Below are positions 1-1,097 of a stretch of DNA of 1,409 bases, piece after piece. The position numbers and the translations under genes were made by a program. The notes beneath the pieces are model-generated. The model was given only the letters and a program-made list of their open reading frames with translations. It was not told where the DNA came from and did not search any database. Within the stretch, counting starts at the first letter, position 1; each line of letters opens with the position of its first letter. This DNA comes from Escherichia coli (GTDB taxonomy: Bacteria; Pseudomonadota; Gammaproteobacteria; Enterobacterales; Enterobacteriaceae), in assembly GCF_003334385.1 (NCBI RefSeq), contig NZ_QOWN01000114.1, one strand, 5' to 3'.

Positions 1-1097
1 ATCTGGAACTTTTCCGGGAAAAGATAGGAAAAACGCATCTGGCAGAGGCGCTGTGGGCAGAGATTGACAACAGTCAGTTGAAGGACGAGATGGCGGAAAT
101 GCAGACCACCATCACAGAAACCCGCAATGAAATCACGCAGACGGTCAGTAAAACGCTGGAGGACCAGAACGCCACCATACAGCAAATCCAGCGTGTGCAG
201 ACGGACACAAATAATGACCTGAACAGCATGTGGGCGGTGAAGCTACAGCAGATGCAGGATGGTCGTCGCTATATTGCCGGTATCGGTGCCGGTATTGAGA
301 ACACCCCTGACGGGATGCAGAGCCAGATACTGCTGGCAGCGGACCGTGTGGCATTCATTAATCCGGAGAATGGTGATACCACACCCGCACTGGTCACGCA
401 GGGGGGACAGACGTTTATCAATGAGGCCCTGATAAAGGTTCTTACCGCCCCCACCATTACCAGCGGCGGCAATCCCCCGGCATTCTCCCTGACGCCGGAC
501 GGCAGGCTGACGGCCCGTAATGCCGATATCAGCGGGAATATCAGTGCCAGTTCCGGTACGCTGAATAACGTGACGATTGCGGAAGACTGCACCATTAATG
601 GAACGATGAGCGCTGACCGAATCATTGGTGATATCGTCAAGGGATACACGGTTGATATGGGGCAGGGCGTAATGACTCAGAACCAGCTGACTTTTCAGAA
701 AATGATTTTGCTGAAAGACAACATGCCGTTTGATCGCAAGCTTATGCTTATGGCGTATTCATTTTCCAGAGGTGAATTCATCATGAAGATAAATGACAAA
801 GTTGTCGTTCATGCCAGGTCAGGCAAAGTCAAAACCGGGGAGCGGGAGGTCCAGATTTCCAAAAACGCCAGCAGATATGAGCCGGTATATTCTGATGTTG
901 GCGGAAGTGCGTCAGGCTCATGGGGTATTCCTGCCGGACAGGGTGATGCGCGGGTTGAAATTACATTCAGGTATGAAGCAGGTGTGCTTTTTTACAGGGG
1001 TGGTTCAATACTTCATGATACGAGTCAAATTCGGATCCCGGACCCGGTTCTGTTTTACCTGAAATCCTATACAGACGATTTTGATACCGCATCGTGA
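1..1097 (+). CDS. J: Host-specificity / central tail fibre (tip attachment) protein, lambda gpJ-like; C-terminal ~365 codons, 5'-partial (codon phase starts at nt 3; true start is upstream of the window)
   Basis: Seen in sequence: the frame containing the 78..1097 ORF has no stop back to nt 3 (LELFREKIGKTHLAEALWAEIDNSQ precedes the TTG at 78), so the ORF is the tail of a longer gene; stop TGA at 1095-1097. From memory of lambda gpJ (not searchable here): motifs such as LTAPTITSGGNPPAFSLTPDG, NADISG, SGTLNNVTIAE-CTINGT and GDIVK closely match the conserved region that precedes the C-terminal receptor-binding domain of lambda J. Gene order, J followed by an Stf-like gene, agrees. Confidence 0.85.
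   Translation, partial: LELFREKIGKTHLAEALWAEIDNSQLKDEMAEMQTTITETRNEITQTVSKTLEDQNATIQQIQRVQTDTNNDLNSMWAVKLQQMQDGRRYIAGIGAGIENTPDGMQSQILLAADRVAFINPENGDTTPALVTQGGQTFINEALIKVLTAPTITSGGNPPAFSLTPDGRLTARNADISGNISASSGTLNNVTIAEDCTINGTMSADRIIGDIVKGYTVDMGQGVMTQNQLTFQKMILLKDNMPFDRKLMLMAYSFSRGEFIMKINDKVVVHARSGKVKTGEREVQISKNASRYEPVYSDVGGSASGSWGIPAGQGDARVEITFRYEAGVLFYRGGSILHDTSQIRIPDPVLFYLKSYTDDFDTAS

What the first reader, a model, noticed from the sequence alone, without database searches (positions are those of the whole stretch)
78..250. Polar, T/Q/N-rich, probably helical segment preceding the conserved J core
Seen in sequence: residues MAEMQTTITETRNEITQTVSKTLEDQNATIQQIQRVQTDTNNDLNSMWAVKLQQMQ are strongly enriched in T, Q, N and E with regularly spaced hydrophobic residues (I, L, V, M), a pattern typical of coiled-coil or shaft segments in fibre proteins. 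Inference only: this could be a trimerisation or shaft element linking the body of J to the distal domains.
Basis: inference. Interest (0 to 1): 0.15.

Follow-up and report, generated by a model that had tools for sequence, protein, structure and literature searches.

The report
Helical shaft of a lambda-J tail fibre
The T/Q/N-rich stretch is this phage's version of the three-helix "shaft" that joins the tail-tip cone of lambda protein J to its receptor-binding fibre; it is a known structural element that here carries one extra 28-residue repeat module, so it is largely ordinary.

Summary
The peptide is real but lies at nt 90-257 (aa 30-85 of the frame 3-1097), not 78-250. T+Q+N+E make up 52% of it against 20% in the rest of the protein (p=3e-6). 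It has no Gly or Pro. Eleven of its 13 hydrophobic residues fall on a/d positions of a heptad register with one stutter (0 of 2000 shuffles).

The window encodes the last 364 aa of a lambda-J-like central tail fibre protein. The segment is homologous to the alpha-helical shaft (AHS, gpJ 809-861), which has been solved by cryo-EM. In lambda the AHS is a three-helix bundle between FNIII-2 and the beta-prism. On LamB binding it flips, and residues 841-861 refold into beta-strands.

phmmer mis-registers this region. In the correct register aa 1-24 match lambda 815-838 and aa 53-75 match lambda 839-861. Aa 25-52 are therefore an extra 28-residue module. Relatives build the shaft from 29-aa repeats, with spacings from 23 to 240 aa. 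The last ten residues of the finding (MWAVKLQQMQ) already belong to the beta-prism.

AF2 predicts a helix at aa 24-76 with a shallow alignment, but is unconfident beyond aa 47 with a deeper one.

Whether the shaft refolds in this protein is inferred, not shown.

The parts
3..1097 (+). C-terminal 364 codons plus stop of a lambda-J-like central tail fibre (tip attachment) protein. The ORF is open at the 5' edge of the window.
   Evidence: Translation. phmmer against lambda gpJ structures gave E = 1e-66. PHROG tail fibre and central tail fiber J families match. The sequence is 98.9% identical at the nucleotide level to the J gene of Escherichia phage PhiR12_5/PhiR12_2.
3..74 (+). Conserved cap, or upper helix, of the alpha-helical shaft: aa 1-24, LELFREKIGKTHLAEALWAEIDNS, matching lambda gpJ 815-838, [24 protein letters not shown].
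   Evidence: Global alignment and MAFFT both choose this register. The BLOSUM62 score is 38 over 24 aa, against 24 over 43 aa in the ungapped phmmer register. The motif L-x-[FLY]-[FL]-x-x-x-I-x-x-x-x-L is kept even in distant homologues. AF2 predicts helices at aa 2-20.
75..158 (+). Extra 28-residue module absent from lambda gpJ: aa 25-52, QLKDEMAEMQTTITETRNEITQTVSKTL. It is inserted at lambda 838/839, close to the 840/841 boundary between the upper (809-840) and lower (841-861) AHS segments. The boundaries are ambiguous by a few residues.
   Evidence: The spacing from the conserved Ile to the Trp of MWAVK is 41 aa in lambda-type sequences and 69 aa in window-type sequences. Aa 25-42 is the most variable part, at 11-89% identity to relatives.
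129..215 (+). One complete 29-residue shaft repeat unit: aa 43-71, EITQTVSKTLEDQNATIQQIQRVQTDTNN. It is preceded by a half unit at aa 29-42 (nt 87-128).
   Evidence: The unit stacks in register with the 29-aa repeats of longer homologues. Self-similarity at offset 29 gives z = 7.8 in P0147, z = 14.5 in P0178 and z = 2.7 in the window.
159..227 (+). Lower shaft helix: aa 53-75, EDQNATIQQIQRVQTDTNNDLNS, matching lambda gpJ 839-861. This overlaps the lambda stretch (841-861) that converts from alpha-helix to beta-strand on LamB binding.
   Evidence: Alignments. The lambda behaviour is from PMC11101478. Identity to other long-form J proteins is 57-87%, as high as in the prism.
90..257 (+). The peptide quoted in the finding (aa 30-85).
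228..644 (+). Beta-sheet prism, or central straight fibre (aa 76 to about 214). It starts with MWAVK. Pfam Phage_Tail_Tip covers aa 59-186 (nt 177-560).
   Evidence: Pfam E = 4.7e-31. The region is 60-75% identical to lambda gpJ 862-1000. AF2 predicts strands from aa 80 onward with pLDDT 70-90. Foldseek top hits are lambda central tail fibre structures 8XCJ, 8XCK, 8XCI and 8JVM.
645..1094 (+). C-terminal receptor-binding region (aa about 215-364). It is not alignable to the lambda RBD beyond aa 255.
   Evidence: Only P0119 and the PhiR12 phages share it.

Best explanation
The segment is the lower two-thirds of the alpha-helical shaft (AHS) of a lambda-J-like central tail fibre protein. Three copies, one per subunit of the J trimer, form a parallel three-helix bundle between the last fibronectin-III domain and the beta-sheet prism that carries the receptor-binding domain.

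The shaft is modular. It consists of a conserved cap helix (aa 1-24), then 29-residue repeats with eight hydrophobic core positions per unit (period about 3.6), then the prism. This protein has about 1.5 repeat units. That is one 28-residue module (aa 25-52) more than lambda gpJ, which would make the pre-infection fibre about 4 nm longer (inference: 28 x 1.5 A).

By homology with lambda, receptor binding at the tip twists the prism. The bundle comes apart and flips back. Its prism-proximal part (aa 53-75, possibly more) refolds into beta-strands that extend the prism. This frees the FNIII domains, lets the tail-tip cone open and brings the tube closer to the membrane.

What is shown here: homology, register, composition, periodicity, repeat architecture and predicted helicity. 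What is inferred: the trimeric bundle and the alpha-to-beta switch in this particular protein.
For: - **Homology to a solved structure.** phmmer hits gpJ structures at E = 1e-66. Foldseek top hits are the lambda central tail fibre in closed and open states and 'AHS-CSF domains' 8JVM.
- **Published behaviour of the lambda element.** PMC11101478 describes gpJ 809-861 as a three-helix bundle below FNIII-2. On LamB binding it flips by about 180 degrees, and residues 841-861 become beta.
- **Register.** The corrected register and the 28-aa insertion come.
- **Heptad-like periodicity.** Period 3.5-3.6, p <= 0.001 for aa 25-77. Eleven of 13 hydrophobic residues sit on a/d positions, matched by 0 of 2000 shuffles. 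Core columns are conserved across relatives.
- **Repeat architecture.** Relatives contain 29-aa repeats that stack in register with aa 43-71.
- **Structure prediction.** AF2 with three linked copies and a 9-sequence alignment gives a continuous helix at aa 24-76 in all three copies, with pLDDT 58-76, then strands from aa 80.
- **Conservation.** Aa 43-75 are as conserved as the prism (57-87% identity), including polar non-core positions. This is more constraint than a simple spacer would need.
- **Related fold switch.** In F-type pyocin, the coiled coil in front of the same C-terminal prism switches entirely to beta-prism, and the authors predict the same for most siphophage central fibre proteins they tested (PMC12874032). 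The window protein has a weak hit to the F2-pyocin fibre 25VF over aa 45-145 (E = 3.2e-5).
Against: - No structure exists for this long-form shaft, and sequence identity to lambda within aa 53-75 is only about 30%.
- AF2 on the monomer with a 43-sequence alignment predicted a helix only for aa 24-47 and gave pLDDT < 50 for aa 41-85.
- The linked-trimer model had pTM 0.33 and no coordinates were available, so neither the bundle nor its parallel orientation was tested.
- The strand motif SxSxxMxxLxS reported for fold-switching pyocin and phage fibres matches fully only once, at aa 57-67. The segment is also Thr/Gln-rich rather than Ala-rich.
- He et al. state that lambda does not show the same extensive fold switch.
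- Shaft-length differences across the family are not always whole heptads. Spacings 41, 69 and 76 are in phase, but 23, 108, 142 and 240 are not.
Confidence: 0.7

Rival explanations
1. The segment is a static trimeric coiled-coil spacer. It only sets fibre length and holds the trimer together, and it does not refold during infection.
For: The heptad-like periodicity and predicted helix fit a plain coiled coil equally well. Aa 25-42 are poorly conserved, as a spacer would be. The pyocin strand motif is essentially absent.
Against: The homologous lambda element is experimentally a switch. Aa 43-75 are conserved at polar non-core positions as strongly as the prism. Pfam's prism family already includes aa 59-75.
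Confidence: 0.2
2. The segment is constitutively beta or extended. It would be part of the prism in the mature virion, and the apparent heptad pattern would be incidental.
For: Thr, Ile, Val and Gln give a mean Chou-Fasman beta propensity of about 1.0, no lower than the alpha propensity. AF2 with the deeper alignment did not commit to a helix beyond aa 47. For related fibres, AF3 predicted a beta-prism in 30% of cases.
Against: There is no period-2 signal, whereas the period-3.6 signal is strong. The closed-state lambda structure is helical in this region. AF2 with a shallow alignment gives a helix at aa 24-76.
Confidence: 0.06
3. The segment is a low-complexity, disordered polar linker with no defined structure.
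For: The polar T/Q/N-rich composition and the low pLDDT in the monomer model.
Against: The hydrophobic residues are strictly periodic and conserved. There is no Gly or Pro. The segment is homologous to an ordered element in solved structures.
Confidence: 0.03

Closest known systems
Alpha-helical shaft (AHS) of bacteriophage lambda gpJ, residues 809-861 (PDB 8XCK closed, 8XCI/8XCJ open, 8JVM; Ge & Wang 2024, PMC11101478)
   Same: It holds the same position in the same protein family, between FNIII-2 and the Phage_Tail_Tip beta-prism. The cap motif matches ([13 protein letters not shown] / LELFREKIGKTHL), as does the junction into MWAVK. The flanking prism is 60-75% identical.
   Different: The window protein has 28 more residues (aa 25-52), inserted at lambda 838/839, close to the boundary between the two lambda helical segments. 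The shared lower helix is only about 30% identical, and it is Thr/Gln/Ile-rich where lambda's is Glu/Lys/Trp-rich. The receptor-binding domain also differs. No structure exists for this form.
Fold-switching coiled coil of the F7 pyocin central fibre protein and related siphophage fibres (He et al. 2026 preprint, PMC12874032; related PDB 25VF, F2 pyocin fibre)
   Same: It is a trimeric coiled coil immediately N-terminal to a homologous beta-prism seed, it is built from repeats, and its length varies between relatives. There is a weak direct sequence hit over aa 45-145.
   Different: The pyocin coil is 163 residues long and Ala/Ser-rich. Distant homologues sampled here show a 32-residue repeat, and the pyocin family has a clear SxSxxMxxLxS strand motif. 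The window has about 50 residues, a 29-residue repeat and only one full motif match.
Long-shaft enterobacterial J homologues found here (for example P0147 and P0178)
   Same: They share the cap, the terminal repeat unit (EIT.T..K.LEDQ.A.IQQIQ.VQ.DT) and the prism. They use the same 29-aa repeat in the same register.
   Different: They carry about 4 and about 7-8 repeat units (spacing 142 and 240 aa), against about 1.5 here (spacing 69). P0178 may contain assembly duplications.
Phage T1 central fibre protein gp33 (PDB 9L9P; PMC11945409)
   Same: It gives a sequence hit over aa 29-145 (E = 3.3e-7). The protein has a lambda-like tail tip with a longer distal fibre.
   Different: The homologous T1 region (residues 821-1172) was not resolved experimentally and is known only from an AF3 prediction.

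Membership tests
Lambda-J-type central tail fibre / tip attachment protein | Phage_Tail_Tip (PF09327, formerly DUF1983) beta-prism domain | tested here: met
   Pfam hit over aa 59-186, E = 4.7e-31.
Lambda-J-type central tail fibre / tip attachment protein | Significant sequence similarity to gpJ across the shaft and prism | tested here: met
   phmmer E = 1e-66 (8XCJ) and 6.9e-66 (8IYK), matching gpJ 795-1042. Foldseek top hits are gpJ structures.
Lambda-J-type central tail fibre / tip attachment protein | N-terminal hub domains and FNIII domains upstream; gene located after the tail tip genes K and I | tested here: met
   These lie outside the window. The 98.9%-identical PhiR12_5 locus has K, I, then J. 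P0119 (99% identical) shows the end of FNIII-2 directly upstream, and P0135 is a full 1155-aa J with the same shaft. A Stf-like gene follows within the window.
gpJ alpha-helical shaft (AHS) | Located between FNIII-2 and the prism, beginning with the conserved cap motif | tested here: met
gpJ alpha-helical shaft (AHS) | Alpha-helical in the free (closed) state | tested here: inconclusive
   AF2 with linked copies and a shallow alignment gives a helix at aa 24-76 with pLDDT 58-76. AF2 on the monomer with a deeper alignment gives a helix only to aa 47, then pLDDT < 50. The periodicity supports a helix.
gpJ alpha-helical shaft (AHS) | Parallel three-helix bundle of the J trimer | not testable with these tools
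   No multimer prediction or model coordinates were available. The linked-copy model had pTM 0.33.
gpJ alpha-helical shaft (AHS) | Flips and partly refolds to beta-strands on receptor binding | not testable with these tools
   This is known for lambda only and is inferred here by homology.
Heptad-based coiled coil | Hydrophobic residues at a/d positions over several heptads | tested here: met
   Eleven of 13 hydrophobic residues in aa 26-77 lie on a/d with one stutter, matched by 0 of 2000 shuffles. The spectral peak is at 3.5-3.6. The core also holds conserved Gln55, Gln66, Thr40 and Thr69.
Heptad-based coiled coil | High score in a dedicated coiled-coil predictor (COILS, MARCOIL, CoCoNat) | not tested
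F-pyocin-type fold-switching coiled coil | SxSxxMxxLxS strand motif recurring through the coil | tested here: not met
   There is one full match (aa 57-67, reverse orientation) and five 4-of-5 matches. No shuffle control was run.
F-pyocin-type fold-switching coiled coil | Both coiled-coil and beta-prism conformations recovered by structure prediction at different alignment depths | tested here: inconclusive
   The shallow alignment gave a helix. The deeper alignment gave low-confidence coil, not a prism. The two runs also differed in construct.

The most novel reading that the evidence does not exclude
Within lambda-like J proteins the shaft is a repeat array of 29-residue units, each roughly eight helical turns and possibly one beta-hairpin layer. 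Copy number runs from about 0.5 units in lambda, through about 1.5 here, to 4-8 in some enterobacterial prophages. That would form a graded series between lambda's small alpha-to-beta switch (21 residues) and the massive F-pyocin switch (163 residues). Under this reading, repeat number tunes both the stand-off distance of the tip and the conformational energy released on receptor binding. The window protein would then be a tractable intermediate in an E. coli phage that can be compared directly with lambda.
Probability: 0.3. Interest if true: 0.5.

Novelty: new member of a known kind. Interest (0 to 1): 0.22.

Why it matters
In lambda and in F-type pyocins, the shaft in front of the J beta-prism is the element that converts receptor binding at the fibre tip into opening of the tail tip. 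How non-contractile tails obtain the energy to breach the envelope is an active question.

This long-form shaft is the common form in E. coli prophages and Stx-converting phages: database clusters hold hundreds to thousands of members, and one search shows the phage matches. Knowing its correct register against the lambda structure (a clean one-module insertion) and its 29-residue repeat design gives simple engineering handles, such as deleting or adding units. It also warns that default sequence alignments mis-register this region.

On its own it is an expected feature of a J homologue, not a surprise.

Tried and rejected
1. **phmmer/BLAST-style ungapped alignment to lambda.** It pairs window aa 8-50 with lambda 795-837. 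I rejected it as mis-registered. The cap motif, MAFFT and the global alignment all place a 28-aa gap instead.
2. **Are shaft-length differences always whole heptads?** This holds for spacings 41, 69 and 76, but not for 23, 108, 142 or 240. Independent events are too few, so I make no claim.
3. **Pyocin strand motif scan.** Only one full match, so it is not used as support.
4. **AF2 monomer with the 43-sequence alignment.** The segment came out mostly at low confidence, so the Foldseek result is informative only for the prism.
5. **Three copies joined by 70-residue Gly/Ser linkers.** This gave only secondary structure and pLDDT. pTM was 0.33 and no coordinates were available, so bundle geometry could not be assessed.
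6. **Internal duplication within the window segment.** The offset-29 self-similarity is only z = 2.7, and no DNA-level direct repeat lies in nt 1-260.
7. **Other features at the locus.** There are no Rfam hits, no inverted repeats, and promoter- and terminator-like sites at chance level. The reverse-strand ORFs at 74-229 and 145-354 are mechanical.
8. **Literature search for the PhiR12 phages.** Nothing relevant was found.

Full report
**What the window is.** Frame 3 of the + strand is open from the 5' edge to a stop at 1095-1097 and encodes 364 residues. These match lambda gpJ structures (8XCJ/8XCK E = 1e-66, 8IYK 6.9e-66; gpJ 795-1042) and PHROG tail-fibre / central tail fiber J families. 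Pfam Phage_Tail_Tip PF09327 matches at aa 59-186 (E = 4.7e-31). The DNA is 98.9% identical to the J region of Escherichia phages PhiR12_5 and PhiR12_2. In those phages the gene follows tail tip genes K and I. The window therefore holds the C-terminal third of a lambda-J-like central tail fibre protein, followed by the start of a Stf-like side fibre gene.

**Checking the observation.** The quoted peptide exists but spans nt 90-257 (aa 30-85). Position 78 is only a mechanical TTG start, and 250 cuts the peptide short.
- T+Q+N+E make up 52% of the segment, against 20% in the rest of the protein (Fisher p = 3.4e-6).
- The segment has no Gly or Pro, against 15% in the rest.
- Hydrophobicity is periodic at 3.5-3.67 residues. 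For aa 25-77 at period 3.6, none of 2000 shuffles reached the observed power. There is no period-2 signal.
- Eleven of the 13 large hydrophobic residues in aa 26-77 fall on a/d positions: L26, M30, M33, I37, I44, V48, L52, I59, I62, L73, M76. The register has one stutter between residues 44 and 52. The remaining core positions hold T40, Q55, Q66 and T69. With the same freedom of register and stutter, 2000 shuffles reached at most 10.
- The same core columns are conserved in relatives.

[quoted passage not shown] The AHS (residues 809-861) is a bundle of three helices under FNIII-2 that anchors the three FNIII-2 units. On LamB binding it turns by about 180 degrees and folds back on the prism. 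Residues 809-840 remodel, and 841-861 become extra beta-strands on top of the prism. This releases the FNIII domains and allows the tip to open.

**Correct register.** phmmer and local BLOSUM alignment lay the window on lambda without a gap, which mis-pairs the N-terminal 50 residues. Homologues with more upstream sequence show the true anchors. The motif ...VGKSAFVEA...GYLDFFKG is shared with lambda, and so is MWAVK.
- Between those anchors lambda has 41 residues and the window type has 69.
- Global alignment and MAFFT place the 28-residue gap at lambda 835-838/839.
- This gives aa 1-24 = lambda 815-838 (cap, or upper helix), aa 53-75 = lambda 839-861 (lower helix, overlapping the stretch that refolds in lambda) and aa 76-80 MWAVK = lambda 862-866 (first prism strand).
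- Aa 25-52 are then an extra module. It is inserted close to the 840/841 boundary between the upper (809-840) and lower (841-861) AHS segments.

The finding therefore covers most of the extra module, all of the lower helix and the first ten residues of the prism.

**Family view.** A search of 1.84 billion representative proteins found 725 relatives. Measuring from the conserved Ile of the cap to the Trp of MWAVK gives discrete classes:

| Spacing (aa) | Distinct sequences |
|---|---|
| 23 | 2 |
| 41 | 13, including lambda (a further one at 40) |
| 69 | 21, including the window; mostly E. coli prophage and Stx-phage J proteins |
| 76 | 1 |
| 108 | 1 |
| 142 | 1 |
| 240 | 1 |

Two further entries, at spacings 119 (P0120) and 123 (P0002), carry internal duplications and were left out.

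In the long enterobacterial forms the shaft is a tandem array of 29-residue units (self-similarity z = 7.8 and 14.5 at offset 29). Stacked in register, these align with window aa 43-71 as a full unit and aa 29-42 as a half unit. Distant homologues use 32-residue units. A 29-residue unit with eight core positions has a period of 3.625, which matches the 3.6 spectral peak.

Aa 43-75 are as conserved among long-form proteins (57-87% identity) as the prism. Aa 25-42 are the most variable part, at 11-89%.

**Structure prediction.**
- AF2 on the 364-aa monomer with a 43-sequence alignment gave mean pLDDT 65. It predicted helices at aa 2-8, 12-20 and 24-47, gave pLDDT < 50 for aa 41-85, and produced a well-predicted beta region from about aa 94. 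Foldseek returned the lambda central fibre structures as its top hits.
- A second run used three copies of aa 1-150 joined by long Gly/Ser linkers, with a 9-sequence alignment. It gave a continuous helix at aa 24-76 in all three copies (pLDDT 58-76) and strands from aa 80. The pTM was 0.33 and coordinates could not be inspected, so the bundle itself was not tested.

He et al. report that helix predictions with shallow alignments and other states with deep alignments are typical of fold-switching central fibres. My two runs also differed in construct, so I treat this resemblance only as compatible.

**Mechanism.** I consider it most likely that this is a three-helix shaft that both trimerises and spaces the fibre and acts as the receptor-triggered switch described for lambda, here with one more repeat module.
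- The helical-shaft part is well supported (about 0.9).
- The alpha-to-beta refolding of aa 53-75 (and perhaps 25-52) in this protein is an inference from homology (about 0.55).
- The 2026 preprint on F7 pyocin (PMC12874032) strengthens the general picture. There, a 163-residue coiled coil in front of a homologous prism converts entirely to beta-prism and powers envelope penetration.
- Its SxSxxMxxLxS strand motif is essentially absent here, and its authors note that lambda does not show the same extensive switch.

**Rivals.**
- A purely static spacer remains possible (0.2).
- A constitutively beta segment (0.06) conflicts with the periodicity and the lambda closed-state structure.
- A disordered linker (0.03) conflicts with the periodicity and the conservation.

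**Other layers.** Nothing at the nucleic-acid level explains the region. There are no Rfam families, no repeats within nt 1-260, and promoter- and terminator-like matches at chance level.

**Verdict.** The element is already characterised in lambda. This copy is a longer, very common enterobacterial variant, so interest is low to modest. The points added here are the corrected alignment register, the one-module insertion relative to lambda and the 29-residue repeat architecture.

Noticed in passing
window 474-481 (compare L001 4478): The closest phage record, PhiR12_5 (PV340554.1), lacks one base of the C5GG run relative to the window. Its J gene is therefore annotated as two CDS (974 aa plus a 175-aa 'hypothetical protein'). 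In the window the gene is intact. The difference is either a sequencing or assembly error in a homopolymer, or a genuine frameshift in that phage.
   Followed up: partly
window 1282-1409: The downstream ORF MTVRISGVLKDGTGKPV... is 74% identical over 38 aa to the N-terminus of lambda Stf (orf-401), the part that forms the side-fibre collar on the tail. Unlike in lambda, no lom gene lies between J and stf.
   Followed up: partly
window 1098-1281: A 184-nt spacer lies between J and the stf-like gene. It contains a terminator-like hairpin (1247-1262) followed by T8, only about 12 nt upstream of the stf start codon. Terminator-like sites in the window as a whole are at chance level.
   Followed up: no
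window 645-1094 (aa about 215-364): The receptor-binding region is unrelated to lambda's LamB-binding domain beyond aa 255. Among the hits it is shared only with the PhiR12 phages and P0119. Weak Foldseek matches are to carbohydrate-binding-module-like beta-sandwiches. The receptor is unknown.
   Followed up: no
P0147 aa 260-413; P0178 aa 126-377; P0139 aa 1-133: Some enterobacterial J homologues carry much longer shafts, made of about 4 to 8 tandem 29-residue repeats in the same register as window aa 43-71. These are candidates for an extensive, pyocin-like coiled-coil-to-prism switch within lambda-like phages.
   Followed up: partly
P0120, P0002, P0178 (database proteins): Several database entries contain internal duplications that span the shaft-prism junction (for example ...MWAVKLQQMQDG...QQIQKVQVDTNNNLNSMWAVK). 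Others have unrelated sequence fused upstream of the cap (P0126, P0128, P0130, P0136). These are probably assembly or gene-calling artefacts and would distort automated length statistics.
   Followed up: no
window 169 and 209-211: Within the shaft, the only amino-acid differences from PhiR12_5 and P0119 are N56S and N70R. Both are at non-core positions.
   Followed up: no
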